Source of the DNA: Candidatus Forterrea multitransposorum CG_2015-17_Forterrea_25_41
GTDB taxonomy: Archaea > Iainarchaeota > Iainarchaeia > Iainarchaeales > CSSED10-239
Reading direction: 5' to 3'
NCBI GenBank assembly: GCA_009392915.1
Contig: CP045477.1
Coordinates: 96,001-160,000 of the forward strand
DNA: 64,000 nucleotides
Every line of letters starts with the position of its first letter. Positions within the stretch are counted from its first letter, which is position 1. Position numbers and translations under genes: made by a program. The notes beneath the pieces are model-generated. The model did no database searches, was not told the origin of the DNA, and was given only the letters and a program-made list of their open reading frames with translations. Shown here piece after piece: positions 1,580 to 27,156 of this stretch.

Positions 1580-2305
1580 ATGAAAGATAATTATTTAGTT
1601 TCACTTTTAAAAGAACTTAATTTAACTGAATATGAAGCAAAAGCTCTTGTTACGTTATTTAAATTTTCAGAATCTGATGCTCCAACTATTAGTAGAAATT
1701 CTGAAATTCCAAAAACTAGAATTTATGATGTTTTAGATAGACTTAAAGATAAAGGTTTTGTTTTAGAAGTTTATAAAAGTCCTAAAACCTATAAAATAGT
1801 TAATCCTGAAGAAATTTTTAAAGGACTTTTAGATTTAAAACAAAATGAACTTTTAAATCTTTCAAAAAAAGTAGATGATGTTATTTTAAACTCAACATGG
1901 TCTTCTTATGCAAATAGTAATCCTGAAAAAGTATTACAAGTAAACAATATTAAAGATTATAATAAATTTTTATCACAAGAATTTGAAACTGCAGAAAAAG
2001 AAATACATGGTTTTACAAATCTTGATGAAAGAATTGATTCTTTAAAATCTGTTTTTACAAATAAAAATTTATCAATTAATATTTTAACAAATCCAGTTAC
2101 AAAAATACATGAAATTCCAAAACATGTAACTATTCAAGAAACTAACCATTCAATGGATGCTTTTGTTTTAGATAAAAAGAAAGTTATTATGGCTTTAAAT
2201 GATTTATCTTCTCCTAAAAAAGCATATAATTTAACTGTTCTTGAAAATAATCCTACCCTTGCAAATGCACTCTTATCTCATTTTAAGGATTACTGGAAAA
2301 AATAG
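1580..2305 (+). CDS. TrmB-family transcriptional regulator
   Basis: N-terminal wHTH LKELNLTEYEAKALVTLFKF..APTISRNSEIPKTRIYDVLDRLKDKGFV is the TrmB (PF01978) signature. Confidence 0.85.
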   Translation: MKDNYLVSLLKELNLTEYEAKALVTLFKFSESDAPTISRNSEIPKTRIYDVLDRLKDKGFVLEVYKSPKTYKIVNPEEIFKGLLDLKQNELLNLSKKVDDVILNSTWSSYANSNPEKVLQVNNIKDYNKFLSQEFETAEKEIHGFTNLDERIDSLKSVFTNKNLSINILTNPVTKIHEIPKHVTIQETNHSMDAFVLDKKKVIMALNDLSSPKKAYNLTVLENNPTLANALLSHFKDYWKK

Positions 2306-2347
2306 TTTTTTTTAATATATTGAATACTTTTTTAAAGTTAACTATCT

Positions 2348-2357
2348 TTATAAATAT
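2348..2357 (+). promoter_or_regulatory. TATA box (TTTATAAATA) upstream of the metalloprotease gene
   Basis: Exact TTTATAAATA about 40 nt upstream of ATG 2397, with SD AGAGGT at 2382-2387. The same motif recurs upstream of other genes and a tRNA in this window. Confidence 0.45.
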
Positions 2358-2396: not shown

Positions 2397-4484
2397 ATGC
2401 AGTTAAAGAAACTAACTTTAGTTTTATTATTTTTATTTATTTTTTCCATACCAGTTTTTTCTTCTTCTATAACTCTTTATGTTTCCTCTCCTTTTTCCTC
2501 TTCATCTTCAAATTTTAGTATTTCTCCTTCACTTTCTTTTGACAAGTTATCTTTAGTTTCAGAAGATAATTTATCTTTATTAAGAGAGCAAAATATTATT
2601 GTTAAAGAAGAAATTATTAAAGAAAAAGAATCTTCTTTAGAAGATAATTCTCTGTTAGAAGAAATAAATTCTCCAAATCATATTTATGAAACTTATTTTC
2701 AAGATTCTGTAATGATTGGAGATGTTTATTTTCCAGAAGGTATAATTGATTCTTCTCAAGTAAGAGAAAGAAGAAATATTAACTCTCAGTCTACAGTTGA
2801 TAATATTTGGGGTACCACTCCATTAACTGGAGAATATCATATTCCTGTTTTTTTAGTTGATTTTTCAGATGTTCCACATACTCTTTCTAAAGAAGTTTTT
2901 GAAGAACAATTTAATTCTCCTCTTTACTTGGACGGTAATGGTACAAGTGTAAGTCAGTATTACAAGAAACAATCCTATGGTGAACTTGATATTACTTTTG
3001 ATGTTTATGATTGGAGAGAAATGCCTGAAACTTATGAATATTATAGTACAAGATTAGGTGTTTTTGGAGCTCAAACAATAGATCTTTTTGGAACTGGTCC
3101 AAATGCAATTGATTTAACTCAATATGATTCTGATAATGATGGTAGGATAGATGGTTTTGTAATTGTTCACGCTGGTTTTTCTTTACAGAACGCTGGTACT
3201 GGTCATATTAAGACATCTACTTTATTAATGTATTCTGATGAAATTTTAACCATTCAAGGTTTGCATTATGGTAATATAGCTGTTACTTCTGAGAGATATC
3301 CTAGTTGTTCTTCTGGTTTTAATGAAAATTTAATTCCATATCCAGATGATTGTAGAATTGGTGTTTTAGATCAAACACATGAGTTTGGTCATATTTTAGG
3401 TCTTCCAGACTTTTATGGTATTGATCCAAATACTGGTGGTCAATCTCCTGGTCTTCAAAACCTAACTATGATGATGATGTATGATGACATTCCTCAAAAA
3501 CCAATTAATTTAGATGCTTGGGCAAGATATTTTTTAGGTTGGATACAACCAACTGTAATTGAAGAGGGCATGGAAGGTGTTTATCCAGTTTATTCAATTG
3601 ACACCAATCCAGATGGTGCTTTTATTTTACAAGATCTAACTGAGATGGATGAACGTGAATTTTTTATAATTGAAAATAGATTTATGCAAAACTCCCCTTA
3701 TAATCAAGATACTTTTCTTTTAAACACTTCTCAACTAAATTGGGATTATTTAAATGGTCATTTTGGTGGAATTGCAGTTTATCATGTTGATGAGCAATAC
3801 ATTGAAGATAATTATCCAACTAACAGTATCATGTGGGATCCTGATGGAGATTTTTATGATGATACTATAGGGCATCCTGGAATCGTTTTTGAAGAAAATA
3901 TAAAATTTTCAGAAAATAATTGGGATTATTCATTAGGAGATTTATATTCTAGTGAACGTAATGCTGGTTTTGGAGATAATACTTTTGGTAATTTTGATAG
4001 ATACCAAAGATTTTATCCAGAATATAATATGTTATGGGATTATCACAATAAAGCCTATAATGGTAATTTAACTGGTGTTACTGTTGGCACTTTAAGTGGT
4101 AGTGGATCTATAGTTTATGCTTATCTTCAAAGTTATCAAGAAACTTTTAATGCTTTAATCTCTTCTCCAAAAAATAACAGATGGTATAAGTATACTAATA
4201 ATTTAAATTTCATTTCAAGTTATTATAATAATTTAGGAGATGTAAGTTGTGTTTGGGAAGATTCCAGTAATAATATTCTATCTCAAGATTGTGAATTTTC
4301 TGCAACTCCAGAAGATTTAGGTTTACCAATCAGTGAATGTTCTGAGAAAATCACTCTAACTTTAGAAATAACAGATCAAGAAACTGGTGATACAATTATT
4401 GATACTGTTGATATAAAGATTTATGAAACCATAAGAGATATTTGTGAGACTGCTCATAACAACACCCAAGCAGCCACAAAATAA
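2397..4484 (+). CDS. secreted M6-family (immune inhibitor A-like) zinc metalloprotease
   Basis: N-terminal signal peptide (LTLVLLFLFIFSIPVFSSS). HEFGHILGLPDFYG matches the HExxHxLGLPDxY motif of the M6 metalloprotease domain (TIGR03296/PF05547 type). Large C-terminal non-catalytic region. Confidence 0.7.
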   Translation: MQLKKLTLVLLFLFIFSIPVFSSSITLYVSSPFSSSSSNFSISPSLSFDKLSLVSEDNLSLLREQNIIVKEEIIKEKESSLEDNSLLEEINSPNHIYETYFQDSVMIGDVYFPEGIIDSSQVRERRNINSQSTVDNIWGTTPLTGEYHIPVFLVDFSDVPHTLSKEVFEEQFNSPLYLDGNGTSVSQYYKKQSYGELDITFDVYDWREMPETYEYYSTRLGVFGAQTIDLFGTGPNAIDLTQYDSDNDGRIDGFVIVHAGFSLQNAGTGHIKTSTLLMYSDEILTIQGLHYGNIAVTSERYPSCSSGFNENLIPYPDDCRIGVLDQTHEFGHILGLPDFYGIDPNTGGQSPGLQNLTMMMMYDDIPQKPINLDAWARYFLGWIQPTVIEEGMEGVYPVYSIDTNPDGAFILQDLTEMDEREFFIIENRFMQNSPYNQDTFLLNTSQLNWDYLNGHFGGIAVYHVDEQYIEDNYPTNSIMWDPDGDFYDDTIGHPGIVFEENIKFSENNWDYSLGDLYSSERNAGFGDNTFGNFDRYQRFYPEYNMLWDYHNKAYNGNLTGVTVGTLSGSGSIVYAYLQSYQETFNALISSPKNNRWYKYTNNLNFISSYYNNLGDVSCVWEDSSNNILSQDCEFSATPEDLGLPISECSEKITLTLEITDQETGDTIIDTVDIKIYETIRDICETAHNNTQAATK

Positions 4485-4561
4485 AAAAATAAGTAAACCA
4501 TTTATATACTTTATGTTATATAATTTATAATATAATTATTTAAAATAAAAAATAAATTAAG

Positions 4562-7531
4562 GTGAATATTTTGATAAAAATAAAAAAAGGACAAATTTCT
4601 TTAGAAGCAATTATTATAATTGGTGTTATTGTTTTAGCAAGTATTATATTTGCGACATTCTATATTTCTAATGTTAATAAAAAAATAGATACTGCAAGTA
4701 ATCTAGATCCTAATTTTTCTGGAATGATTGGATCTGATGAAATGGGGTCAACTGATCCTATAACTATTGGTGAAGAACCAGGTCCAGGCCCAGGTCCAGG
4801 AGGAAGTACTTGTGGTGATAATATTATTGAAGGTACAGAAGATTGTGATGGTACTAATTTAGGTGGTGCTACATGTGAGTCTGAAGGTCAAGGTACAGGA
4901 GATTTATCTTGTAATTCAAATTGTACTTTTGATTATTCTGGTTGTTCTAGTCCAACAGCAAGTTATACAATAACTTCAAGTCATGGATCAAATGGAACTA
5001 TTTTTCCTTTAGGAGCTGTAACAGTTTTAGAAGGGGCAAGTAAAAAATTTAATTTGTATCCAAATGCAGGTTATGATGTAGATACTGTTTCAATTGATGG
5101 TGCAGAAGTTTCTCTTAGTGAAAGAAGAAGTTATACTTTTAATAATGTTACTTCCGGTCATACTATTCATGTAACTTTTAAACCTTATGCTTCAAATGAA
5201 CATATTATTTTTGCAAGTAGTGGTTCTCATGGAACCATAGATCCTGCAAGAAATAATACAGTTATAGAAGGAGATGATATTACTTTTACATTTAATCCAG
5301 ATACAGGATATCGTGTAGGTAATGTCTATATTGATGATACTACTGTTGGTTCAGAACAAATAGAGATTATTAATGATTTTTCTTCAAAAGATTCTGAAAA
5401 TAATAATTTATATTTTTCAGAAGAAGATGTTTTATATTTTGCATCTGATACAGGGACAGGTACTTCTTCAAATTTAGTTTATACTTTTGAAGATGTAGAT
5501 GATAGTCATACTATTCATGTAACTTTTATATCAAACACAACTCCTACATATACTTTAGAATATATTGCTGGAGCAAATGGTAGTATTTCTGGTCCAAATC
5601 CTCAAACTGTAAGTCAAGGAGAAGATGGTACAGAAGTATGTGCTGTTGCAGATGAAGGTTATGAATTTTTTAAATGGGATGATGATTATTATTCTGAATG
5701 TAGAACTGAAACAAATGTAACAAGTAATCAAACATATACTGTTATCTTTAATGAAAATGCAGGTCAAACAATGGCTATGAATTTAGAAGGTGTTGAATCA
5801 ACTCCAATAAATCAAAACTTTGATGTTGTTGTTAATACTTCTGAAACTCCAGGAACTGTAAGTTATGGTTTAGTTGCAGGATTATTAATTTATAATGATG
5901 TTGCAGGAGATTATTTGCCAACAAACAATTGTTCTTATAACGGAACTTTTGCTTCAAATCATACACTTGAAACAAATCAATCTCCAGGTATTGAAAATTA
6001 TACTTTTACATGTAATACTTCTGGAAACTATAAATTTACATTTACAGCAACAGATACAACTAACTCAACAAATGATGTTTCAAGAGATAAATTAATTACT
6101 GTTGTAAATAACCAAACAGCAGCACCAACATTTTCAATTGATGGAGGTACTTATTTTAATGATCAAACATTAACTTTAAGTTCAACAACTCCTAGTGCAA
6201 CTATAAAATACACAACTAATGGTACTATCCCAACTTGTACTACAGGAACAACTTATTCTCCTGCAAGTCCAATTCAAATTAATCAAATTTTAACAGTAAA
6301 AGCAATTGCTTGTAAATCTGGATATATTGATAGTCAAGTTGTTACAGAAATTTATAATTTAAAAGTTGGATATCCAGAACCAAGTGTTAATCCTGGTGTA
6401 TATTCTCAAGCACAGACAATTACTCTTTCAACAGAAACAATTGGTGCAACTTTGTATTATTCAACAGATGGTTCTGATGCTTTTGATGGAAGTGTTTACG
6501 TTCCAGGAGAAGAAATTATAATTTCAAAACCATATACTGAATTAAGAGTGGCAGGAGAAAAATCAAATTATAATGATAGTTCAGAATTTGATGAATATTA
6601 TTATATAAATGGTTATGAATCTCCAACTCCAAGTATGGTTTTTACAAATTATTATGGAGATGCATATAATCTTGTAGGTGCTGCAAATTTAACTCACTCA
6701 GATGTTTTCTTTGAAGATGAAGAAAATAATTTAGTAAGATTTGTTAATCCTAAATTAAATGGAGATTATTTTAACGGAAGTAATGCTTCAGGAGCTACAT
6801 TAATAGATTGTGAGGCATTTTGTTCTGAAAAGTATCTTGGAGGAACTTGTGATTCTTTTGATAAAACTAATTATTCTGGAAATGCAAATAATTTGATATA
6901 TTATAGAAATATGATTCCTGGTTCTGGTGGTGCAAATGATGTTTTCCCTTACACAATTGGGGGTGAGTTATCTAATTCTCCTCAATGGGCTTATGCTTCT
7001 GGAGCTATTGGTGGACCAGATAGAGTAGGATACTTCACTTGTGATTTTTCACACACCTCCAGTCCAGAAGATGCAGACTTTGGATTTATTGATTTATATA
7101 CTGAAGATTTATTATTAAATTATGGTGATCCATTTGATGGTACAGAATTCTATTATGATTCTTCAAGAGTAACTTTTGATAATGTTACAAAGTCTGGTTC
7201 AGAATATACTTATTCAGGTTTAAATGTTGTAGGTAATTTTGACACACCAGGCGCAACTGCTCCAACAGGAACAGTTTATATACTTTCAGATGATTTTTCA
7301 CAAGCTTGTGATGCTGTATGTGATGCTTTATATCAAGAAAGTTCTTGTGAAAATTATGATACAACAGATGTATATACTGCTAAAGGAGTTTCATATAATT
7401 ATTATCCTCCTGAATATGCAACAATATTTAATCCTAATTTAAGTACAGGTTATTATTGGACATCTGGAAGTCAACTTTTCTATGATGTTTGGTCAGAAGC
7501 TGTTCTTTCAGAAGTTACTTGTTCAAAGTAA
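4562..7531 (+). CDS. giant surface adhesin-like protein with archaeal class III (type IV pilin-like) signal peptide
   Basis: N-terminus ..IKIKKG|QISLEAIIIIGVIVLASIIF: short basic leader, G|Q, S+3, E+5, hydrophobic helix (QxSxE, DUF361-type). SD AAGGTGA 4559-4565 favours TTG 4571 as the real start. Also has a PGPGPGPGG linker and a Cys-rich CGDN..EDCDG..C..C repeat. Contains repeated ~80-aa beta modules (YTITSSHGSNGTI / HIIFASSGSHGTI / YTLEYIAGANGSI) and two TIKYTTNGT / TLYYSTDGS modules. Confidence 0.75.
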   Translation: MNILIKIKKGQISLEAIIIIGVIVLASIIFATFYISNVNKKIDTASNLDPNFSGMIGSDEMGSTDPITIGEEPGPGPGPGGSTCGDNIIEGTEDCDGTNLGGATCESEGQGTGDLSCNSNCTFDYSGCSSPTASYTITSSHGSNGTIFPLGAVTVLEGASKKFNLYPNAGYDVDTVSIDGAEVSLSERRSYTFNNVTSGHTIHVTFKPYASNEHIIFASSGSHGTIDPARNNTVIEGDDITFTFNPDTGYRVGNVYIDDTTVGSEQIEIINDFSSKDSENNNLYFSEEDVLYFASDTGTGTSSNLVYTFEDVDDSHTIHVTFISNTTPTYTLEYIAGANGSISGPNPQTVSQGEDGTEVCAVADEGYEFFKWDDDYYSECRTETNVTSNQTYTVIFNENAGQTMAMNLEGVESTPINQNFDVVVNTSETPGTVSYGLVAGLLIYNDVAGDYLPTNNCSYNGTFASNHTLETNQSPGIENYTFTCNTSGNYKFTFTATDTTNSTNDVSRDKLITVVNNQTAAPTFSIDGGTYFNDQTLTLSSTTPSATIKYTTNGTIPTCTTGTTYSPASPIQINQILTVKAIACKSGYIDSQVVTEIYNLKVGYPEPSVNPGVYSQAQTITLSTETIGATLYYSTDGSDAFDGSVYVPGEEIIISKPYTELRVAGEKSNYNDSSEFDEYYYINGYESPTPSMVFTNYYGDAYNLVGAANLTHSDVFFEDEENNLVRFVNPKLNGDYFNGSNASGATLIDCEAFCSEKYLGGTCDSFDKTNYSGNANNLIYYRNMIPGSGGANDVFPYTIGGELSNSPQWAYASGAIGGPDRVGYFTCDFSHTSSPEDADFGFIDLYTEDLLLNYGDPFDGTEFYYDSSRVTFDNVTKSGSEYTYSGLNVVGNFDTPGATAPTGTVYILSDDFSQACDAVCDALYQESSCENYDTTDVYTAKGVSYNYYPPEYATIFNPNLSTGYYWTSGSQLFYDVWSEAVLSEVTCSK

Positions 7532-7552: not shown

Positions 7553-7595
7553 AAAAGCTTAATTTCTTTTAAGCTTTTCTTTTTTTTTTCTTTTT
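7553..7595 (+). terminator. hairpin plus T-run terminator after the adhesin gene
   Basis: Perfect 10-bp stem AAAAGCTTAA (7553-7562) / TTAAGCTTTT (7569-7578) with a 6-nt loop, followed by CTTTTTTTTTTC. Confidence 0.6.
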
Positions 7596-7715: not shown

Positions 7716-8255
7716 ATGTCTGAATTTATAAAATTCTCTGTACCTGAAGATTTAAGAGTTTTACAAGATGAAACTATTAAAAAATTATCAAAATCAGGTA
7801 AAATAAAAATAGGTATAAACGAAGTTACAAAAACAATTGAAAGAGGAAATGCAAAATTTGTTATTATTGCTGAAGATGTATCTCCTGCTGAAATTGTAAT
7901 GCATATACCAATAATCTCAAAAGAGAAAAAAATCCCTTTTTCTTATGCAAAAACTAAAGAAGATTTAGGTAAAATGGTTGGTATCTCTGCAAAAGCAAGT
8001 TGTGTTGCTATAACAGATGCTGGTTCAATGCAAAAAGAATTAACAACATTAATTGATAAGATTGAAGAAGTTTCTGGTGGTAAAAAAGCAGCTGTAAAAA
8101 CAGAAGATGTTAAAAAAGAAAAACCTTCTCCTAAAAAAGAAGAAGTAAAAAAAGAAGCTCCTTCTCCTAAAAAAGAAGAAGAAGTAAAAAAAGAAACACC
8201 TAAAGAAGAAAAACCAGAAAATAAAGAAGAAGTTAAAAAAGAAAACAAAGAATGA
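7716..8255 (+). CDS. rpl7ae: 50S ribosomal protein L7Ae (eL8) with K/E/P-rich C-terminal extension
   Basis: ..KIKIGINEVTKTIERGNAKFVIIAEDVSP.EIV.HIP core of L7Ae. SD AGGAGG at 7702-7707 fits ATG 7716 (track start TTG 7707). About 60 extra residues of KKE/PSPKKEE repeats. Confidence 0.9.
   Translation: MSEFIKFSVPEDLRVLQDETIKKLSKSGKIKIGINEVTKTIERGNAKFVIIAEDVSPAEIVMHIPIISKEKKIPFSYAKTKEDLGKMVGISAKASCVAITDAGSMQKELTTLIDKIEEVSGGKKAAVKTEDVKKEKPSPKKEEVKKEAPSPKKEEEVKKETPKEEKPENKEEVKKENKE
8124..8195 (+). repeat. in-frame tandem repeat (33 and 36 nt) encoding PSPKKEE(E)VKKE in the L7Ae tail
   Basis: CCTTCTCCTAAAAAAGAAGAAGTAAAAAAAGAA at 8124-8156 recurs at 8160-8195 with one extra GAA. Confidence 0.7.
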
Positions 8256-8267
8256 GGTGAATAATTT

Positions 8268-8480
8268 ATGGCTGATGAAGGAATACCTGCAGAAGTAGTA
8301 GAAGTTGTAGGTAGAACTGGTTCTCGTGGAGAAGCTACCCAAGTTCTTTGTAGAGTTATTGATGGTTATGAGAAAGGTAGAATTAAAAAAAGAAATGTCA
8401 AAGGTAATGTTAAGAAAGGAGACATTCTATTATTAATGAATCCAGAAACAGAAGCAAAGGACATTAAGGCACGTAGGTGA
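8268..8480 (+). CDS. rps28e: 30S ribosomal protein S28e
   Basis: PAEVVEVVGRTGSRGEATQVLCRV is the S28e signature. SD GAGGTGA upstream. Confidence 0.9.
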   Translation: MADEGIPAEVVEVVGRTGSRGEATQVLCRVIDGYEKGRIKKRNVKGNVKKGDILLLMNPETEAKDIKARR

Positions 8481-8486
8481 TTTTTA

Positions 8487-8681
8487 ATGCAATGTACATT
8501 TTGCGGAAAAGAAGTTCCAAAAGGGACTGGTGTTTTATATGCAAAGAAAGATGGAACTACTTTTATATTTTGTTCAAGCAAATGTAAAATTAATGTTCTT
8601 GAAAAAAAATTCAAAGCACATAAAACCAAATGGACAAATAAATATCATGTAGAAAAAGAAAGACATTTAAAGAAAAAATAA
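8487..8681 (+). CDS. rpl24e: 50S ribosomal protein L24e
   Basis: CTFCGKEVPKGTGVLYAKKDG..FIFCSSKC zinc-ribbon signature of L24e. Completes the conserved L7Ae-S28e-L24e trio. Confidence 0.9.
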   Translation: MQCTFCGKEVPKGTGVLYAKKDGTTFIFCSSKCKINVLEKKFKAHKTKWTNKYHVEKERHLKKK

Positions 8682-8781
8682 TTTTTTTTTCTTTTTCTTT
8701 TTTCTTCAAATATTTCTAAATATAAATATTTTTTTTAATATAAATTAAATATTTAAAATAAAAATAAATAAAAGGTGGTTT

Positions 8782-21525: not shown

Positions 21526-22272
21526 CTATTTATAACTTAAAAGCTTTTTAACATTTATATTCTCATTAAAAATCTCTTTTGACATTCCTTCAACATGTCC
21601 AGCACCAACAACAACCACAATGCTGTTAACATCTTCTTGTTGTAAGATCTGTCTAATACCATAAGCCATAAACTGATCTCTCTCATCAATCATTATTCTC
21701 TTTAAGGTCTTATGTCTTTTCATGAAAATTTCAAGAAGTTTATTTAGTTTGTCACCACTCTCTTCATCATCAACGCTTTTTAAAAGAACATTTACATCAA
21801 AGTCTTTACCAAGTTCTTTTCTTGTGTTAAATCCTCCAAAGAAAAGTCTAAATTTATCTCTAAAGGTTAAATTTTTTAAAAGTTTACTTAAAGTAAACTC
21901 TGCATCTCTATCCAGAAGTAAAAGCTTTGATTTATTCTCTTGAGCAGAAATAACTCCTTGCATCATTTCTTCTCCAGGAGTTGTATCAAATTTACTTGCA
22001 ATTTTTTTTTGAAATTTTTGTAAAACATAATATACTAAAAAAAGTCCAGGTTTTTTAGCTCTAAAAATATCTTTTAATCTAATCTCTCTTTTATTTTCTT
22101 TTGTCATCATGCTTTGAAATCTTTTTCTATCAAGCTCAATTCCAACAACATCAGGTTTTTCTAAATCAATAGTTTCTTTTACTTTTTCCTTGCTTTTTTT
22201 AGAAATATGTGCTGTTCCAACAATAATTATTTTTTTATTATTATAAAAAATAGTTTTAATCATAATTTTCAC
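21526..22272 (-). CDS. TraB/PrgY-family protein
   Basis: IIIVGTAHISKKS near the N-terminus and VVVVGAGHVEGM near the C-terminus are the two TraB-family (PF01963) signatures. Confidence 0.8.
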   Translation of the reverse strand: MKIMIKTIFYNNKKIIIVGTAHISKKSKEKVKETIDLEKPDVVGIELDRKRFQSMMTKENKREIRLKDIFRAKKPGLFLVYYVLQKFQKKIASKFDTTPGEEMMQGVISAQENKSKLLLLDRDAEFTLSKLLKNLTFRDKFRLFFGGFNTRKELGKDFDVNVLLKSVDDEESGDKLNKLLEIFMKRHKTLKRIMIDERDQFMAYGIRQILQQEDVNSIVVVVGAGHVEGMSKEIFNENINVKKLLSYK

Positions 22273-22380
22273 TTAAAATAAACATTTAAATAGGTTTTTA
22301 ATATATTATATATTATAAATAATAGGAAACATTTTTAATATGTTTTTAAAATATTTAAATTAAGGAAAATCAAGATATAT

Positions 22381-25300
22381 ATGAAAAATAAGATACTAAT
22401 AATTTTTTTATTTACAATTTTACTTTCAACTTTTATTTTTTCAGATCCTGTTGTAAAGATAAATGATAATTTAACAACATATACAAACAGTGATTCTGAA
22501 AACTTCTATGTTGAAGTAAGTAATACTGGAGATAATTGTGAAGTTGAATCTGATTTTATAAGTATTAATTTAAGTTCAGATGCAGCAAGTTCTTTTCCAT
22601 ATTTAATATACTGTAATCTTGAAAGAAATTATAGTGGTTATTTTTCAGTAGATTTTTCAACAAACACACCAACACCTCCAATACCAAATGTTTTAGTTAA
22701 TAATGAAGATACTGTTATTGCAGACTATAATGGGTTTACTGCTAATTTAGTAGTTGACACAATAAATACTATAACAGGAACTTTTGATTTAAATTCTGTT
22801 GATTCAGTTGTAAATAATTACTATAAAGGAGATGTTGAAGTTACTTCTTTAAGTTCTTTTTCAGATGCACATTCTGGTTTAAAAGAATATTACATTTATA
22901 TTGTTGAAGTTGATTCAGTAAATGACTATAGAGATGATTATTATAAGAGATTAATTGTAGATGTTAATGAAACTTCTATTGATTTAGGTACATCTACAAC
23001 TGTTTCTGATGGAAATTATTTTGTTTTAGTTGAAGCTTTAGATTATGCTGAAAATCTTGCAATACCTTCTCAAGTAATTTTAAATAAAAAAAATATGTAT
23101 GTTGATAATACAGCACCTCAAGTAACTTCTTTTAGTTTAGGAAGTTTTTCAGAAGGTACAACTTATTATGTTCCTTCAACAACTACTACTTTGACTTTAT
23201 TAATTGAAGATGATGGTGTAGGGGTAAGGAATGAACCTCTATATACACAAATAGATAGAGATAGTGTAAAGTTAGCAGATTATAATTCTATATTAGGCGG
23301 TTTCTTTTTTGATTTTACAACAGTTGATTATGATATTGATGGTTCATATGAGCTTGCAGCAACAGATCTTTTAGGTAATTTAAATGAAAAAACATTTTCA
23401 ATAATGATAGATGAAACTTCTCCAACAACTCCAACAATTTCAACAGTTACAAGAGCTGTAGATAATAATGTTACAATTTCAAATTGGGGTACTTCAACTG
23501 ATTCTGGAAGTGGTTTAAAAGAATACAAAGTCTATAGGTCAACTTCTTCTTTTACAGAAGTTTCAAATCAAGATTTAATTTGTACAGTTTCTGCAGCTGC
23601 TTCAAAAACTTGTCTTGATTCAACTTCAAAATCAGATGATACAAGATATTATTATGGTGTTACTGCAGTTGATAATGCAGGAAATAATAGTCCAGTTGTA
23701 ACTGCAAGCATAAAAACAGGTCCTGAACTTGATATTTATATTGATTTAGAAGATTCTGATTTTGTAAATACTGTTACTCCAGAGATAACTTTAGAGTATG
23801 GTTCTGATGTTAATGCTGTTAGATTTAGTTGTAATGCTTCAACTTTTACATCATGGGTTGAAGTTTCGGGAACTTCTGAGGTTTATGAAAGTTTTAATGT
23901 AACTTCTGGAAATGGATGTAATACAGATCAAGGAGATAAAATAATTTATGTTGAAGCAAGAAGTGAAGACGATCCTTATCTTATTACTAGAGAATCTTTT
24001 GAGTTTGAACTTGATTCAAAAGCACCAACAATACCTAGTAACATAGAAGTTTTAGAACAAGCAAATGGTTCTTTAAATATTTCTTGGACAAGCTCAACAG
24101 ATGTAAATGGTAGTGGTCTTGAAGAATACAGGATTTATTATTCAGAATCTGAGTCAGTTTCTAAATCCTCACAATATATGACTTCTTCAGATGAAGAGTA
24201 TATTTTTAATCCTAATGAAGATAAAACATTTTATTTTAAAATATCTGCAATTGATGAAGCATTAAATGAATCTGATCTTTCATCTATTGCTTCTGGAACT
24301 GCAAAAAGATTTGGACCTTCTTTTACTTTTAATGCAAGCCCAAAAAATTTAATTGATGATGTTTATTATTTAAAAAAAGGAAATGTTTTATTTACTATTA
24401 CAAGTAGTGAAGAATTAAAACAAACACCTATTATTAGACTTAAAATTGGTAATTCACCTTATAAATCAATTTCTGCAATTTATAGTAATTTAATTACAAC
24501 TTTTAATTATTCTTTAGAAGAAAGTGGAGATTCAATTTTAGAAATTACAGGTACAAATAATAATAATGAAACAACAACTGATACTTTTAATTTTATAGTA
24601 GATGCAGAAGTTCCAACTTTTACTGCTGACTATAATTTCTTTGAAGATACTAAATTATATGAATTTAAAATAAGTGATTTTTCAGATGATGTTTTCAGAG
24701 TTCAATATTTATTTAATAATGTTGAAGAAGTTTGTTTTATTGAAGATTCAAATAACAATTATCTTTGTTCACTTGATTCTACTCTTTATAAAGATGGTAA
24801 TCATAAAATGTATGTTTTAGTTTATGATAGAGCATTAAATTATGAAACTGAAATTATTTCTTTTGAAATAGATAATGTTGATGAAGCTTTAATTTTAAAA
24901 GAAAATTTAGTTGCTGAAATTAATACAAATATTTTTACAATTGAAGATAGAATTTCTTTCCTTCAAGCAATCTCTTTAGAAGTTTCTCAAGATGTTTTAG
25001 ATAAATTTTCTGAAGCTAAAGAAAAAGTTGTTCTTGCAAAATCTCTAGAAGATTCAAATAATTTTTCAGAAGCTGTAAATACTTATACTTCTGTAAATAA
25101 TTCTTTACTTGAGATATTAGAAGTTTTACCTACAGAAAATGTTTTAAAAACAAAAACTATTGAAATTGATCTTTTAGATAATTCTTTTGATCTTAATACA
25201 GTTATTTTGGATCAAAATATATTAACTGATAATTTGTCTTTTTATGATGTTAATAATCAAGACCTAAATTTTATATCAGTTTCAAGAGAATTTAGTGTTT

Positions 25301-25959
25301 TTGAAGTATCTGGTCAAAACTTTTATTCTAGTAATTTAATTTTTGTAAATGACTCTAATGTAGATAAAGTAATTTCTTTTATTGAAGTAATACCTAAAGA
25401 ATTTGAAAAATCTTCAGATAATATTTATTTTGATAGAAATATTGTTGTAATTGATAAAGATCCAATAATTCTTTATAATTTAGTAATTCCTAAAAATTCT
25501 TCTCTTACAACAAAATATATTAGTCAAACAGCAATTACAAGTTTTGATATTTTAACTAAATTTGATGCAATTGTTTACAAGTCTCCTCTTCTTTTAACTG
25601 GATCTGTAAATTTAGAAGATTTAAATTTTGAAAAACCTTTAATTGATAGTAAATCTTTATTTATGATAGCAGTTGTTCTTTTAATAATAATTATCTTACT
25701 TTTAGTAATCTGGATGGTGGCTTCTGGTCGTAAGAAAAAAGAAGATGTCTTTAAAGAAATGGAACCTAAGGATGCTATGAATAAATATCTTGGAAATAAA
25801 CTAAATAGTAATTCTCAAGAAAAATCTTCAACTGATTCTTCTTCATCTAAAACTTTAGAAGAAAAAGAAGAAGAGCATAAAAGTGATCTTGAAAAGAAAA
25901 AGAAGTATGATAGTAATTATGAGTTTATTTTAGATGCTGTTAAAAGAAGTAATAAATAA
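22381..25959 (+). CDS. large type-I membrane surface protein with Fn3-like repeats
   Basis: Signal peptide. Repeated modules containing [HG]SGL[KE]EY.[IV]Y ... A.D.A.N.S (three copies). C-terminal TM LFMIAVVLLIIIILLLVIWMV plus K/E/S-rich cytoplasmic tail. Confidence 0.6.
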   Translation: MKNKILIIFLFTILLSTFIFSDPVVKINDNLTTYTNSDSENFYVEVSNTGDNCEVESDFISINLSSDAASSFPYLIYCNLERNYSGYFSVDFSTNTPTPPIPNVLVNNEDTVIADYNGFTANLVVDTINTITGTFDLNSVDSVVNNYYKGDVEVTSLSSFSDAHSGLKEYYIYIVEVDSVNDYRDDYYKRLIVDVNETSIDLGTSTTVSDGNYFVLVEALDYAENLAIPSQVILNKKNMYVDNTAPQVTSFSLGSFSEGTTYYVPSTTTTLTLLIEDDGVGVRNEPLYTQIDRDSVKLADYNSILGGFFFDFTTVDYDIDGSYELAATDLLGNLNEKTFSIMIDETSPTTPTISTVTRAVDNNVTISNWGTSTDSGSGLKEYKVYRSTSSFTEVSNQDLICTVSAAASKTCLDSTSKSDDTRYYYGVTAVDNAGNNSPVVTASIKTGPELDIYIDLEDSDFVNTVTPEITLEYGSDVNAVRFSCNASTFTSWVEVSGTSEVYESFNVTSGNGCNTDQGDKIIYVEARSEDDPYLITRESFEFELDSKAPTIPSNIEVLEQANGSLNISWTSSTDVNGSGLEEYRIYYSESESVSKSSQYMTSSDEEYIFNPNEDKTFYFKISAIDEALNESDLSSIASGTAKRFGPSFTFNASPKNLIDDVYYLKKGNVLFTITSSEELKQTPIIRLKIGNSPYKSISAIYSNLITTFNYSLEESGDSILEITGTNNNNETTTDTFNFIVDAEVPTFTADYNFFEDTKLYEFKISDFSDDVFRVQYLFNNVEEVCFIEDSNNNYLCSLDSTLYKDGNHKMYVLVYDRALNYETEIISFEIDNVDEALILKENLVAEINTNIFTIEDRISFLQAISLEVSQDVLDKFSEAKEKVVLAKSLEDSNNFSEAVNTYTSVNNSLLEILEVLPTENVLKTKTIEIDLLDNSFDLNTVILDQNILTDNLSFYDVNNQDLNFISVSREFSVFEVSGQNFYSSNLIFVNDSNVDKVISFIEVIPKEFEKSSDNIYFDRNIVVIDKDPIILYNLVIPKNSSLTTKYISQTAITSFDILTKFDAIVYKSPLLLTGSVNLEDLNFEKPLIDSKSLFMIAVVLLIIIILLLVIWMVASGRKKKEDVFKEMEPKDAMNKYLGNKLNSNSQEKSSTDSSSSKTLEEKEEEHKSDLEKKKKYDSNYEFILDAVKRSNK

Positions 25960-25971
25960 TTTTGAAAAAAT

Positions 25972-27156
25972 ATGATTGAAGGTATAGATAAAAGAATAAT
26001 TATTGTTGGTGGTGGACCAACAGGACTTTATTGTGCTTATCTTTTAAAAAAATTAAATCCAAATATAATTATTACAGTCATAGAAGAACATAAAACTTGT
26101 GGTTCTCCAATGTGTTGTAGTGGTTTAATTGATGTTTCTGGTTATAATAGATTAAAGCTTAAAAATTTTTTAGTTTTAAAAGACTTTTTAATAAATAAAA
26201 TATATGGATCTCACATCTATGGTCCTTTAGAAGCAAAAATAGATGTTCTTTCAAAAGATGTTAAAGCATATGTTATTGATAGAGAAAAATTTGATAATAG
26301 TATAAAAGAATTAGCCTTAAGTTTTGATGTTGAACTTTTATCTGGAAAAAGAGTTGTTTCTATTGAAAATAATTTTGTAACTTTTAAAGATTTAGAAACT
26401 GATTCTGAAGAACAATTAAGATACGATTATTTAGTTGGAGCAGATGGTCCTAATTCTTTGGTGAGAAAAACTTTTTTCCCTGAAATTAAAAACTCAGAGT
26501 TTGTGCATACTTATCAAGTAACAGTTGAAGGAAATTTTGATAATAGAAATGTTTCTGTTTATTTAGGTGATTTTGCAAAAGGTTTATTTGCATGGATTGT
26601 TCCTGAATCATCAAGTGTTGCAAAAATTGGTTTAGGTGTTTCTTTAGGTAAAAATCCTAAAGATGCTTTTTTAAAATTTAAAGAAAAATATAAATTGACT
26701 TATCAAAGAGAGATTTATGAATGTTCAGGTATATTGCCTATCTCTAAACCATTAAAAAATTTAGTGCATGACAATGTTTTACTTGTTGGAGATGCTGCTT
26801 GTTTTGTAAAGTCTACAACTGGAGGAGGAGTGAATTTTGGACTTCTTTCTTCTGAAATGGCATCAAAAGCAATTAATGAAAGAATTAAAGAGTATAAGTC
26901 TCTTAAAAACTATAATACTTTATTAAAAAAATACCGTAAAGAATTAAATACTCATTATAAGATTAGGAATTATTTATTGTCTAAAAATTTTGTAGAACAA
27001 GATAAATTGCTTTTAAAGATTAAAGATTCAAATATTCATAAAATTTTAGAAGAATATGGCAACATGGATTATCCTAGTGAATTTTTATCAAAGATTTTTA
27101 CAAATAAAAATAGTTTTTTATTAATTCCTGAATTTTTTAAATTTATTATTAAATAG
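25972..27156 (+). CDS. geranylgeranyl reductase-family FAD-dependent oxidoreductase
   Basis: Dinucleotide-binding IIIVGGGPTGLYCAYLL, ..LVGADGPNS.. and LLVGDAACFV motifs typical of archaeal GGR. Confidence 0.8.
   Translation: MIEGIDKRIIIVGGGPTGLYCAYLLKKLNPNIIITVIEEHKTCGSPMCCSGLIDVSGYNRLKLKNFLVLKDFLINKIYGSHIYGPLEAKIDVLSKDVKAYVIDREKFDNSIKELALSFDVELLSGKRVVSIENNFVTFKDLETDSEEQLRYDYLVGADGPNSLVRKTFFPEIKNSEFVHTYQVTVEGNFDNRNVSVYLGDFAKGLFAWIVPESSSVAKIGLGVSLGKNPKDAFLKFKEKYKLTYQREIYECSGILPISKPLKNLVHDNVLLVGDAACFVKSTTGGGVNFGLLSSEMASKAINERIKEYKSLKNYNTLLKKYRKELNTHYKIRNYLLSKNFVEQDKLLLKIKDSNIHKILEEYGNMDYPSEFLSKIFTNKNSFLLIPEFFKFIIK

What the first reader, a model, noticed from the sequence alone, without database searches (positions are those of the whole stretch)
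2397..7531. Secreted protease plus giant pilin-signal adhesin inserted between conserved ribosomal gene clusters
Seen:
- The conserved uS9-RpoN-uS2 block (79-1452) and the L7Ae-S28e-L24e block (7716-8681) are separated by a TrmB regulator, a signal-peptide M6-type metalloprotease (HEFGHILGLPDFYG) and a 989-aa surface protein.
- The two large genes lie 77 nt apart on the same strand. They have their own TATA box (2348) and a strong terminator (7553-7595), so they form a two-gene unit.

Knowledge: M6/InhA-like proteases degrade host or extracellular proteins.

Inference: this is a protease plus adhesin host-contact module in a reduced-genome archaeon. No integrase, flanking repeats or compositional shift are visible, so it is probably not a recent mobile insertion.
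Basis: partly seen in the sequence, partly recalled or inferred. Interest (0 to 1): 0.55.

Follow-up and report, generated by a model that had tools for sequence, protein, structure and literature searches.

The report
Secreted metalloprotease paired with pilin-signal surface protein
A small-genome archaeon carries a secreted zinc protease gene next to a gene for a very large surface protein with a pilin-type anchor, and this pairing recurs in about fifteen related archaeal contigs, so the two probably work together outside the cell, though for what purpose is not known.

Summary
Window 2397-4484 encodes a Sec-signal M6 (InhA-type) zinc metalloprotease. HEFGHILGLPD is invariant in 40 homologues, and the family profile and the AF2 model both hit B. 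anthracis InhA2. Window 4571-7531 encodes a 986-aa protein (TTG start; 989 aa from the GTG at 4562) with a class III (type IV pilin-like) signal, MIKIKKG|QISLE plus a hydrophobic helix. It continues with a Cys-rich module, three InlB B-repeats, an Ig-like region, two CHB_HEX_C domains and an orphan C-terminal pair of 4-Cys domains.

The new result is synteny. In 13 further distinct archaeal loci (protease identity 34-51%), an M6 gene of this clade has a class III-signal gene directly next to it on the same strand. A fourteenth has a variant leader, and one more has a partner cut off by the contig edge. The partner lies on either side, ranges from 105 to 1805 aa, and occurs in several genomic contexts. 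No locus with both flanks visible lacks a partner. None of the other roughly 125 M6 loci scanned, which are higher-GC and mostly bacterial, has one.

The site between uS2-TrmB and L7Ae is shared by at least two other lineages, and GC3 is typical of the genome, so this is an old resident. Co-function outside the cell is well supported. Host contact, adhesion and co-transcription remain inference. No pilus machinery lies within the roughly 82 kb seen.

The parts
1580..2305 (+). TrmB-family winged-helix regulator (241 aa). It is a neighbour and a possible regulator of the pair. It lies directly upstream of the module in the window, in L006 and in L013/L094, but not in L003, L004 or L089-L093.
   Evidence: PF01978 E 8e-20; NCBIfam TrmBL1/TrmBL2 matches far below cut-off; synteny. 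A regulatory link is inference only.
2347..2356 (+). TATA-like element TTTATAAATA, 41 nt upstream of the protease ATG. A GAGGT Shine-Dalgarno lies at 2382-2386.
   Evidence: Read from the sequence. It does not match TTTAWATA. AT-rich context makes this weak evidence.
2397..4484 (+). M6 (InhA / thuringilysin-type) zinc metalloprotease precursor, 695 aa. Layout: Sec-type signal peptide (aa 1-23); low-confidence Ser-rich region with one helix (aa 24-96), a possible pro-region; catalytic core (about aa 140-480); C-terminal beta-sandwich (about aa 560-680, PKD-like below threshold).
   Evidence: PF05547 42 bits, cut-off 22. TIGR03296 108 bits, cut-off 110.8. Profile of 40 homologues hits InhA 4yu5, E 3.9e-29. 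AF2 model pLDDT 78.6. Foldseek top hits are the InhA2 zymogen 4yu6/4yu5, E 1e-12.
3378..3410 (+). Zinc-binding and catalytic motif HEFGHILGLPD (H328, E329, H332, G335, D338), followed by Y340. The candidate Met-turn M359 lies at nt 3471-3473.
   Evidence: H328, E329, H332, G335, D338 and Y340 are invariant and M359 is at least 90% conserved in 40 homologues down to 18% identity. The same motif aligns to the InhA and snapalysin sites.
4501..4508 (+). Exact archaeal TATA consensus TTTATATA in the spacer between the two genes. There is no run of 5 or more T between the protease stop and this point.
   Evidence: The leader at 4526-4564 is 79% identical to the leader of the aIF5B gene at 8739-8777 (D9).
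4571..7531 (+). Class III-signal (type IV pilin-like) modular surface protein, 986 aa from TTG 4571 (989 aa from GTG 4562). A GGTGA Shine-Dalgarno lies at 4561-4565.
   Evidence: It has 26 N-x-S/T sequons, 20 Cys and 3.5% K+R, against 13-23% K+R in cytosolic neighbours.
4571..4690 (+). Class III signal peptide and alpha-1 helix: MIKIKKG|QISLEAIIIIGVIVLASIIFATFYISNVNKKID. The predicted prepilin-peptidase site follows Gly7, with Gln at +1 and Glu at +5.
   Evidence: PF04021 23.5 bits against 23.7. TIGR04205 N-terminal region E 4.5e-5, far below cut-off. The same K[GA]Q.S[IL]E plus hydrophobic helix is found in 13 partner proteins of relatives. It is the only such N-terminus in the 64-kb window.
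4811..4945 (+). Six-Cys module CGDNIIEGTEDCDGTNLGGATCESEGQGTGDLSCNSNCTFDYSGC, of the DUF4215 / myxococcal Cys-rich-repeat type.
   Evidence: PF13948 E 0.059, below threshold. Local hits at 60-63% identity to DUF4215 proteins P0203 and P0232. The module is conserved in the partners of L003, L004, L089 and L168.
4949..5770 (+). Three divergent InlB B-repeat (Flg_new_2) domains.
   Evidence: PF18998 E 3.5e-17, three stretches. This region accounts for most of the distant database hits.
5771..6130 (+). Ig-like region with two Cys and no confident family assignment.
   Evidence: Only sub-threshold Pfam hits, for example Big_9 and GOLD. Conserved in P0122-P0125.
6140..6601 (+). Two CHB_HEX_C_1 / Fn3_assoc domains. 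The same domain type is fused to the M6 protease itself in many relatives.
   Evidence: PF13290 E 1.2e-19, two stretches, and PF13287 E 7.8e-13. M6-CHB_HEX_C fusions are P0024-P0057.
6638..7528 (+). Lineage-specific distal region made of two tandem domains of about 150 aa, each with four Cys. The spacing is C-x3-C-x8-C-x63-C and C-x3-C-x8-C-x57-C. Function unknown; proposed to be the specificity-determining head.
   Evidence: Cys positions. The two halves align at equivalent positions, E 0.002. No Pfam, NCBIfam or PDB sequence hit. Among 1.84 billion representatives only self and one marginal hit were found. The AF2 model failed, pLDDT 31.7. One copy is present in P0125 / L003.
7553..7595 (+). 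Hairpin AAAAGCUUAA-(6 nt)-UUAAGCUUUU followed by C, T10, C, T5. Probable transcription stop for the large gene.
   Evidence: dG -9.4 kcal/mol, z -2.8, 3 of 200 shuffles fold as well. The generic scan did not flag it because it has only 2 GC pairs. That archaeal termination occurs at oligo-T is general knowledge.

Best explanation
The two genes form a conserved extracellular module of a clade of small-genome (DPANN-type) archaea.

Gene 1 is made as a Sec-exported zymogen of an InhA-type (M6) zinc endopeptidase. It has no anchor of its own.

Gene 2 is exported with a class III signal. A prepilin peptidase would cut after Gly7 (KKG|QISLE). The protein is then held by its N-terminal hydrophobic helix, either in the membrane or at the tip or base of a type IV filament. 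This resembles a modular minor pilin or a Sulfolobus bindosome protein. It projects a glycosylated, disulfide-bonded stalk roughly 950 aa long: a Cys-rich knob, three InlB B-repeats, an Ig-like domain and two CHB_HEX_C domains. The stalk ends in a fast-evolving double 4-Cys head that sets binding specificity.

The protease and the pilin-anchored protein act on the same external target, most likely the proteinaceous or glycan envelope of another cell, or protein-rich particles. The anchored protein would bind the target or hold the protease there, while the protease cuts it.

Shown: the identities of the domains, the intact active site, the export signals, and the conserved linkage.

Inferred: processing by a prepilin peptidase, surface display, physical or functional cooperation, and the nature of the target.
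For: Protease identity and intact site.

Export signals: a Sec-type signal on all 58 close M6 homologues and a class III signal on none. A class III signal on gene 2.

Extracellular composition of gene 2: 26 sequons, 20 Cys in domain-wise pairs, 3.5% K+R.

Conserved linkage. An M6 gene of this clade is immediately adjacent, on the same strand with spacers of 24-140 nt, to at least one K[GA]Q.S.E class III protein in:
- the window
- L003, L004, L006
- L011, and L013 = L094
- L089, L090, L091, L093, L096
- L168, a second M6 paralogue in the L003 genome
- L170, with two M6 genes among five pilin-like genes
- L171

L009 has a variant leader, KGFNLFT. L173 has a partner truncated at the contig edge.

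Protease identity across these loci falls to 34-38%. The order (upstream, downstream or both), the partner size (105-1805 aa) and the genomic context all vary, while the N-terminal 45 aa stay conserved.

The motif is rare. There is one in the 64-kb window. Among the 146 scanned loci with an M6 ORF it occurred only in the low-GC archaeal loci, apart from one spurious match in L039.

Domain sharing: CHB_HEX_C/Fn3_assoc is in gene 2 here but fused to the protease in P0024-P0057.

Precedent: modular pilins, including pilin-peptidase fusions, in bacteria (PMC8179133), and class III-signal non-pilin surface proteins in archaea (preprint 10.64898/2026.04.22.720090).
Against: - No prepilin peptidase, assembly ATPase or platform gene lies in the window or 8-10 kb beyond either end. 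The rest of the genome could not be searched.
- PF04021 scores 0.2 bits below its gathering cut-off.
- No pilin globular domain was identified after the helix.
- No domain with a known ligand was found. The head is an orphan and could not be modelled.
- No sequence similarity was found between the protease C-terminal domain and gene 2 that would suggest docking.
- An exact TATA consensus lies between the genes, so co-transcription is not assured.
- Gene neighbourhood shows linkage, not mechanism. It cannot tell whether the partner is a scaffold, a co-factor or a substrate.
Confidence: 0.55

Rival explanations
1. The class III-signal proteins are the substrates of the M6 protease. The protease trims or sheds their ectodomains. 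It might cut in the conserved juxtamembrane linker to release or activate the stalk, or it might remodel a filament. The linkage then reflects an enzyme and its dedicated substrate.
For: The only part of the partners conserved across all loci is the N-terminal helix plus a short acidic/aromatic linker motif (D-[FY]-x-x-[WFMI]) about 20 residues after the helix, whatever ectodomain follows. Partners as small as 105 aa, with no obvious binding domain, are still linked to the protease. InhA-type enzymes are broad endopeptidases made as zymogens (4yu5/4yu6 are zymogen structures).
Against: There is no direct evidence for cleavage. The linker motif may simply be the end of the pilin alpha-1 helix. 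Known maturation of class III-signal proteins uses aspartic A24 peptidases, not metalloproteases (general knowledge). CHB_HEX_C domains fused to the protease in relatives fit a shared target better than an enzyme-substrate pair.
Confidence: 0.15
2. The module serves nutrition. The protease digests environmental proteins for an organism that cannot make its own amino acids. The anchored protein is a bindosome-like capture device for protein or glycoprotein substrates, with no role in cell-cell contact.
For: Class III-signal proteins serve nutrient capture in Sulfolobales, and a preprint proposes that this is widespread. A TrmB-type, nutrient-sensing regulator family lies directly upstream in three lineages. 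Other peptidases (a TldD/PmbA pair) and an asparaginase-family protein (possibly GatD, since GatB/GatE-type domains lie in the next gene) are in the window.
Against: No ABC transporter or peptide-binding protein lies next to the pair in any locus seen. The distal head evolves very fast and is lineage-specific, which fits a variable biological partner better than generic protein capture. This reading overlaps with the best explanation in everything except the target.
Confidence: 0.2
3. The genes are neighbours with no functional link. Two unrelated secreted-protein genes sit side by side in a variable, surface-protein-rich spot of the genome.
For: A possible separate promoter for gene 2. Surface-protein genes often cluster. 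No physical-interaction evidence exists.
Against: Adjacency persists in 13 further distinct loci, on either side of the protease, in several unrelated genomic contexts, and for two paralogues in one genome. The motif occurs only once in 64 kb here and, apart from one spurious match, was not found in the remaining loci scanned, which are higher-GC and mostly bacterial.
Confidence: 0.05

Closest known systems
Immune inhibitor A (InhA1/InhA2) of Bacillus, MEROPS family M6 (thuringilysin)
   Same: The catalytic domain matches at sequence-profile level (E 3.9e-29) and fold level (Foldseek E 1e-12). Both have the HExxHxxGxxD zinc site, a Sec signal, an N-terminal extension consistent with a pro-region, and C-terminal beta-sandwich domains.
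   Different: Sequence identity is only about 11-12% over the structural alignment, and global TM is about 0.4. The organism is an archaeon. The gene is linked to a class III-signal protein, which is not a feature described for InhA. The substrates of the archaeal enzyme are unknown.
Modular type IV pilins (S. sanguinis PilB/PilC; bacterial pilin-peptidase fusions), Raynaud et al. 2021, PMC8179133
   Same: A class III signal with Gly at -1 and Glu at +5, a hydrophobic alpha-1N helix, a linker, then bulky functional modules displayed outside the cell. That paper also lists pilins fused to S74 or M26 peptidases, so pilin-linked proteolysis has a precedent.
   Different: Here the peptidase is a separate, Sec-exported protein encoded next door. 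No pilin globular module was recognised. The organism is an archaeon with a Gln at +1 and a QxSxE-type motif. Incorporation into a filament is untested.
Archaeal class III-signal non-pilin surface proteins (Sulfolobus bindosome sugar-binding proteins; 'widespread bindosomes' preprint 10.64898/2026.04.22.720090)
   Same: A large functional protein carries a pilin-type N-terminus. Its gene lies away from the assembly machinery and is regulated with its functional partners.
   Different: There is no solute-binding domain and no ABC transporter nearby. The partner is a protease, and the ectodomain is built from adhesin-type repeats.
SPEARE proteins of Ca. Nanohaloarchaeum antarcticus (from memory: Hamm et al. 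2019 PNAS; not checked here)
   Same: It is a DPANN surface determinant that combines protease and adhesion-type domains, and it is proposed to mediate host interaction.
   Different: SPEARE is one giant polypeptide with a serine protease and a restriction-endonuclease domain, and it has no class III signal. Here there are two genes, a metalloprotease and a pilin-type anchor. No homology was tested.
Bacterial M6-CHB_HEX_C fusion proteases (records labelled Bacteroidales and Cloacimonetes; also archaeal MAGs)
   Same: These are the closest non-self relatives of the catalytic domain (36-44% identity). They carry the same CHB_HEX_C/Fn3_assoc domains that sit in gene 2 here.
   Different: In these proteins the domains are in one polypeptide. 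The more distant bacterial M6 homologues often carry T9SS sorting domains. None of the mostly bacterial M6 loci scanned has a class III-signal neighbour.

Membership tests
Peptidase family M6 (InhA / thuringilysin) | Significant match to the family's catalytic-domain models | tested here: met
   PF05547 scores 42.1 bits against a cut-off of 22. TIGR03296 scores 108 bits, just under its cut-off of 110.8. A profile of 40 homologues hits InhA 4yu5 at E 3.9e-29.
Peptidase family M6 (InhA / thuringilysin) | HExxHxxGxxD zinc-binding and catalytic motif intact | tested here: met
   HEFGHILGLPD is present. H328, E329, H332, G335 and D338 are invariant in 40 homologues.
Peptidase family M6 (InhA / thuringilysin) | Metzincin Met-turn downstream of the motif | tested here: inconclusive
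   M359 is at least 90% conserved and lies in a run MMMM. Its placement under the zinc site was not checked in the model.
Peptidase family M6 (InhA / thuringilysin) | Overall fold like the solved InhA2 structure | tested here: met
   Foldseek top four hits are 4yu6/4yu5, E 1e-12 to 8e-12, probability 1.00, over about 710 columns. Global TM is only 0.37-0.42, as expected for a multidomain protein.
Peptidase family M6 (InhA / thuringilysin) | Proteolytic activity and zymogen activation | not testable with these tools
   The N-terminal region aa 24-96 is present but has low confidence. No biochemical data exist.
Class III signal peptide / type IV pilin-like proteins (PF04021, archaeal QxSxE type) | Short basic leader ending in Gly/Ala, then Gln +1, Ser +3, Glu +5 and about 20 hydrophobic residues | tested here: met
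   MIKIKKG|QISLEAIIIIGVIVLASIIFATFY. The pattern is conserved in 13 partner proteins.
Class III signal peptide / type IV pilin-like proteins (PF04021, archaeal QxSxE type) | Score at or above the Pfam gathering threshold | tested here: not met
   23.5 bits against 23.7, missed by 0.2 bits. Homologue P0125 carries a precomputed PF04021 hit, and the L003 partner carries one marked faint.
Class III signal peptide / type IV pilin-like proteins (PF04021, archaeal QxSxE type) | A prepilin peptidase (A24: FlaK/PibD/EppA) encoded in the genome | not tested
   None was found in the window or 8-10 kb beyond either end. The remaining roughly 580 kb of the contig could not be read.
Type IV filament subunit (true pilin, major or minor) | Assembly ATPase and platform protein nearby or in the genome, and a pilin globular domain after alpha-1 | tested here: inconclusive
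   There is no ATPase or platform gene within about 82 kb (same calls). After the helix comes a flexible PG-rich linker and a Cys-rich module rather than a recognisable pilin head. Filament incorporation remains open.
PIP-CTERM/archaeosortase D-associated class III proteins (TIGR04205) | Full-length match above cut-off | tested here: not met
   17.9-23.4 bits against a cut-off of 65. Only the signal region matches. Not filed here.
T9SS-dependent inactivated M6-like proteins (NF052323) | Full-length match and a degenerate active site | tested here: not met
   26 bits against a cut-off of 600. The active site is intact.

The most novel reading that the evidence does not exclude
The K[GA]QxS[IL]E pilin-like family and the M6 proteases form a dedicated, previously undescribed type IV-filament-related system of DPANN archaea. 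This would be a 'proteolytic pilus' or a pseudopilus-like device. Small pilin-like subunits (105-196 aa in L013, L089, L096, L170) would build a short fibre. Giant modular members such as this 986-aa protein would sit at its tip as specificity heads. The Sec-exported InhA-type protease would be its cargo or partner, used to breach the S-layer of a host cell.
Probability: 0.15. Interest if true: 0.75.

Novelty: new variant of a known kind. Interest (0 to 1): 0.45.

Why it matters
How DPANN archaea recognise, hold and open up other cells is largely unknown, and almost none are cultivated.

A gene pair kept together across deep divergence gives a concrete, testable candidate for the contact or feeding apparatus of one such clade. 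It consists of an InhA-type protease, which is a virulence-type enzyme in Bacillus, and a pilin-anchored protein with a hypervariable head.

The pair also extends the 'modular pilin' and 'bindosome' idea. A pilin-type N-terminus is used as a general anchor for functional modules, here as an archaeal protease partner.

Finally, it offers a simple genomic marker for finding more such systems: an M6 gene next to a K[GA]QxSxE gene.

If the pair is ordinary, it remains a well-annotated pair of secreted proteins.

Tried and rejected
1. A homologue search with the C-terminal 320 aa of gene 2 returned nothing, not even the self hit. This was a wasted search, probably a limit of the word index.
2. An exhaustive HMMER search of the C-terminal 311 aa against 1.84 billion representatives found only self and one marginal hit. 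The head is an orphan.
3. The AF2 model of the C-terminal head, built from a 5-sequence alignment, had pLDDT 31.7 and is unusable. My guess that it might be a C-type lectin-like domain, based on the CxxxC...W...C(D/E)F pattern, could not be tested and is dropped.
4. Pfam, NCBIfam and PDB sequence searches of sub-segments gave only sub-threshold hits for the Cys-rich module (DUF4215, E 0.059) and nothing for the head.
5. I looked for pilus machinery (prepilin peptidase, ATPase, platform) across the window and 8-10 kb beyond each end. None was found.
6. I tested for mobile-element signs. There is no tRNA, no Rfam family above gathering, only AT-rich low-complexity repeats, and native GC3. Recent horizontal insertion is rejected.
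7. I looked for a docking-type similarity between the protease C-terminal domain and gene 2. None was found.
8. The sigma-70 promoter scan is not meaningful for an archaeon.
9. Literature searches for M6/InhA together with DPANN found no paper among those listed holding both terms. Searches for the source genome accessions found none.
10. The taxon name 'Candidatus ainarchaeum', used in records of relatives, is not in the taxonomy copy. It may be a misspelling of Ca. Iainarchaeum, which is DPANN. The lineage was not independently placed.
Full report
**1. What is in the sequence**

Pfam confirms every gene named:

| Gene | Window position | Evidence |
|---|---|---|
| uS9 | 79-486 | PF00380 |
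| RpoN | 494-688 | PF01194 |
| uS2 | 715-1452 | PF00318 |
| TrmB-family regulator | 1580-2305 | PF01978, E 8e-20 |
| M6 peptidase | 2397-4484 | PF05547, 42 bits, cut-off 22 |
| Large surface protein | 4562/4571-7531 | see below |
| L7Ae, S28e, L24e | 7716-8681 | Pfam |

The large protein carries a class III signal, an InlB B-repeat (Flg_new_2) and CHB_HEX_C_1/Fn3_assoc domains.

The window is 24% GC. The same DNA is on record as a 663-kb JGI metagenome contig and as NCBI assembly GCA_009994275.1, labelled 'archaeon'. Records of close relatives are titled 'Candidatus ainarchaeum sp.'. A small-genome, DPANN-type archaeon is therefore plausible, but I did not place it phylogenetically.

**2. Corrections to the observation**

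- **Start codon.** A GGTGA Shine-Dalgarno sits at 4561-4565 and overlaps the GTG at 4562. The TTG at 4571 follows it by 5 nt. The NCBI record aa, JGI's P0121 is 986 aa, and the 83-85% identical homologues begin at the same residue. The protein is therefore most likely 986 aa, beginning MIKIKKGQISLE, and the spacer is 86 nt.
- **Promoters.** The element at 2347-2356 is TATA-like only. An exact TTTATATA lies between the genes at 4501-4508. The leader of the large gene is 79% identical to the leader of the aIF5B gene (D9). No run of five or more T follows the protease stop. Both read-through and a separate promoter are therefore possible.
- **Terminator.** After the large gene there is a 10-bp hairpin (dG -9.4, z -2.8), followed by C, T10, C, T5.
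- **Composition.** Total GC rises to 0.30-0.31 in the two genes. GC3 (0.125 and 0.062) lies within the range of the other 30 genes (0.06-0.18). The rise is in GC2, so it reflects amino-acid composition.
- **Mobile-element signs.** There is no tRNA, no Rfam family above gathering, and only AT-rich chance repeats.

**3. The protease**

An alignment of 40 homologues, down to 18% identity, keeps H328, E329, H332, G335, D338 and Y340 invariant, and M359 nearly so. The site is therefore HExxHxxGxxD with a candidate Met-turn.

The single sequence finds nothing in the PDB. The family profile hits B. anthracis InhA at E 3.9e-29, and hits snapalysin on the motif alone.

The AF2 model has a mean pLDDT of 78.6, and above 90 through the catalytic core. 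Its four best PDB matches are the InhA2 zymogen chains (E about 1e-12, probability 1.0, about 710 aligned columns). Global TM is only about 0.4.

The N-terminus is a Sec-type signal peptide. It is followed by a low-confidence Ser-rich stretch with one helix, which may be a pro-region. The C-terminus is a beta-sandwich.

All 58 close homologues have Sec-type signals and none has a class III signal. I see no membrane anchor or sorting signal at the C-terminus, so the enzyme should be released unless something holds it.

**4. The large protein**

*N-terminus.* After the leader MIKIKKG comes QISLEAIIIIGVIVLASIIFATFY. This has Gln at +1, Ser at +3, Glu at +5 and a hydrophobic helix, which is the archaeal QxSxE form of a class III signal. 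PF04021 scores 23.5 bits against a cut-off of 23.7.

*Domains that follow, in order:*
- A PG-rich linker.
- A six-Cys module of DUF4215 type. This is sub-threshold in Pfam, but has 60-63% local identity to DUF4215 proteins.
- Three InlB B-repeats.
- An unassigned Ig-like region.
- Two CHB_HEX_C/Fn3_assoc domains.
- About 300 residues with no match anywhere.

*The unmatched C-terminal region.* There was no Pfam, NCBIfam or PDB hit. An exhaustive search of 1.84 billion representatives found only self and one marginal hit. This region is two copies of a four-Cys domain, with Cys at 747/751/760/824 and at 913/917/926/984. The copies align at equivalent positions, E 0.002. The 39%-identical homologue P0125 has one copy. 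The AF2 model failed (pLDDT 31.7), so I cannot name the fold.

*Composition.* The protein has 26 N-glycosylation sequons, 20 Cys and 3.5% Lys+Arg. Cytosolic neighbours have 13-23% Lys+Arg. This is the make-up of an extracellular protein.

*Homologues.* Full-length homologues are few: P0121-P0124 at 83-100% identity and P0125 at 39%. The other hits come from the B-repeats.

**5. The main finding: a conserved pairing**

I fetched the surroundings of protease homologues from four sources: exact-protein look-ups, GTDB genomes, JGI metagenomes, and further look-ups used as a test of the prediction.

| Locus | M6 identity to window | Arrangement | Context / note |
|---|---|---|---|
| L003 | 51% | 814-aa class III-signal protein downstream | Partner 40% identical to the window's; lies between EF1A/S10 and PolD |
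| L004 | 45% | 1578-aa partner downstream | Different context again |
| L006 | 38% | 387-aa partner upstream | After uS9-RpoN-uS2-TrmB |
| L013 = L094 | 36% | 105-aa pilin-like gene, M6, then a 582-aa pilin-like gene | uS2-TrmB on one side; one minus-strand gene, then L7Ae and aIF5B on the other. Same site as the window |
| L173 | 43% | Partner (C-terminal fragment only, 83% identical to L006's) then M6 | Followed by L7Ae-S28e-L24e-aIF5B |
| L011, L089, L090, L091, L093, L096 | about 32-50% | Partners of 172-1805 aa directly beside the M6 gene | L089 has two partners |
| L168 | 36% | 386-aa partner 73 nt upstream | Second M6 paralogue of the L003 genome |
| L171 | 37% | 537-aa partner directly downstream | |
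| L170 | 37% | Two M6 genes among five pilin-like genes | |
| L009 | 36% | 585-aa downstream neighbour | Variant prepilin-like start, KG|FNLFTALVSLML |

In all of these the genes are on the same strand with spacers of 24-140 nt.

The loci without a visible partner are all cut by a contig edge on the relevant side: L008, L010, L012, L088, L092, L095 and L169. I found no informative counter-example.

The motif is rare. There is one in the 64-kb window. The strict motif was absent from the remaining loci scanned, which are higher-GC and mostly bacterial, apart from one spurious match in L039.

What the partners share is the first 45 or so residues: K[GA]|Q.S[IL]E, a Gly-containing hydrophobic helix, and Y[IL]S..N. 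A short acidic/aromatic motif follows in the linker, and there is often a Cys-rich module. The ectodomains are otherwise unrelated.

The CHB_HEX_C domains sit in the partner here but are fused to the protease itself in many relatives (P0024-P0057).

**6. What this means**

Linkage that survives changes of gene order, partner size and genomic context, and that holds for paralogues within one genome, points to selection for keeping the genes together. This is the usual signature of a functional partnership.

The simplest mechanism that fits the anatomy has four steps:
1. The protease is exported by Sec as a zymogen.
2. The neighbour is exported, cut by a prepilin peptidase after Gly7, and held by its N-terminal helix in the membrane or in a type IV filament.
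3. Its long glycosylated stalk presents a fast-evolving head.
4. Both act on one external target.

I put 0.55 on this co-functioning surface module.

Within that explanation the target is open. It could be the envelope of a host cell, or environmental protein as food. The head's rapid divergence leans towards a biological partner, but there is no direct evidence.

A distinct rival is that the pilin-like proteins are the protease's substrates (0.15). The conserved N-terminus and linker, and the existence of very small partners, fit this reading. Coincidental neighbourhood is very unlikely (0.05).

**7. What is missing**

No prepilin peptidase, assembly ATPase or platform gene lies in the window or 8-10 kb beyond each end. 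I could not read the rest of the genome. No pilin globular domain is evident. 'Adhesin' and 'host contact' are therefore still inferences.

**8. Position in the genome**

The pair lies between uS2-TrmB and L7Ae here, in L013/L094, and by the combined evidence of L006 and L173 in a third lineage. In L003 and L004 it is elsewhere. This is an old, inherited location and not a recent insertion.

An ancestral arrangement of pilin-M6-pilin with differential loss would explain the three orders seen at this site. That is inference. I found no relative with an empty site, so 'inserted' is not demonstrated.

TrmB is adjacent only in this context, so a regulatory role is possible but unsupported.

**9. 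Comparison with known systems**

The protease is a member of family M6 by every feature I could test.

The neighbour works like a modular type IV pilin (PMC8179133). That paper also lists bacterial pilins fused to S74 and M26 peptidases. The neighbour also resembles archaeal class III-signal surface proteins of the bindosome type (preprint 10.64898/2026.04.22.720090). Membership as a true filament subunit is open.

Literature searches for M6/InhA together with DPANN listed no paper holding both terms.

I therefore rate this a new variant of known kinds. The parts are familiar. The conserved protease-plus-pilin-signal pairing in a DPANN-type clade appears undescribed.

**10. Verdict**

Interest is moderate (0.45). 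The finding gives a specific, testable candidate for the surface apparatus of an uncultivated archaeal clade, but the mechanism is still inferred.

Noticed in passing
window 7716-8255: L7Ae carries a Lys/Glu/Pro-rich low-complexity tail of about 60 aa (KKEKPSPKKEEVKKEAPSPKKEEEVKKE...), encoded by imperfect tandem DNA repeats at 8083-8245. The L173 homologue is longer still, at 243 aa. L7Ae is normally about 120 aa (from memory).
   Followed up: no
window 21526-27156; L095 1336-6737: The cluster of TraB-family protein (minus strand), a roughly 1190-aa Sec-signal surface protein (faint Big_13) and a 394-aa FAD/GGR-like protein is conserved in gene order in L095. There an M6 protease of the same clade follows it directly. 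This is a second large secreted protein of unknown function in the window.
   Followed up: partly
window 60142-62544 and beyond (L172 12470-16339): An 800-aa signal-peptide protein with no Pfam hit and 18 N-glycosylation sequons is followed, just outside the window, by a 1289-aa protein also without any Pfam hit. This may be another pair of surface proteins.
   Followed up: no
L169 2668-6559; L088 3600-6943: In two relatives the M6 gene is followed by radical-SAM enzymes. In L169 there is also a 47-aa Cys-rich peptide (…CSVCHCDCGCGSDCPCSSCY), which looks like a RiPP-type cluster next to the protease.
   Followed up: no
L170 1-14904: This is a dense cluster of at least five class III-signal proteins (163-862 aa, several with faint Glug hits) around two tandem M6 protease genes. 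It is the richest version of the module and the best place to look for a filament-type system.
   Followed up: partly
L168 8453-12379: Directly after the second M6 paralogue of the L003 genome lie a HicA/HicB toxin-antitoxin pair and then an 838-aa protein with an S_layer_C domain, probably the organism's own S-layer protein.
   Followed up: no
L003 8266-8607: A 113-aa ORF with a different archaeal pilin-type start (KKEKG|ISPLIAIIILVVVSVAIIG) lies 1.4 kb upstream of the M6 gene. This locus therefore holds two kinds of class III-signal proteins.
   Followed up: no
window 38190-40860 (minus strand): A tandem TldD/PmbA-type metallopeptidase pair is present. Downstream are an asparaginase-family protein (possibly GatD, given the next gene) and a protein with GatB/GatE-type domains, all in a genome that otherwise looks reduced.
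   Followed up: no
window 6569-7528 (tool behaviour): The word-indexed homologue search with the C-terminal 320 aa returned no hit at all, not even the identical database protein P0121. The exhaustive search did find P0121. Negative results from the indexed search should not be trusted for this kind of low-complexity, Asn/Ser/Thr/Gly-rich sequence.
   Followed up: yes
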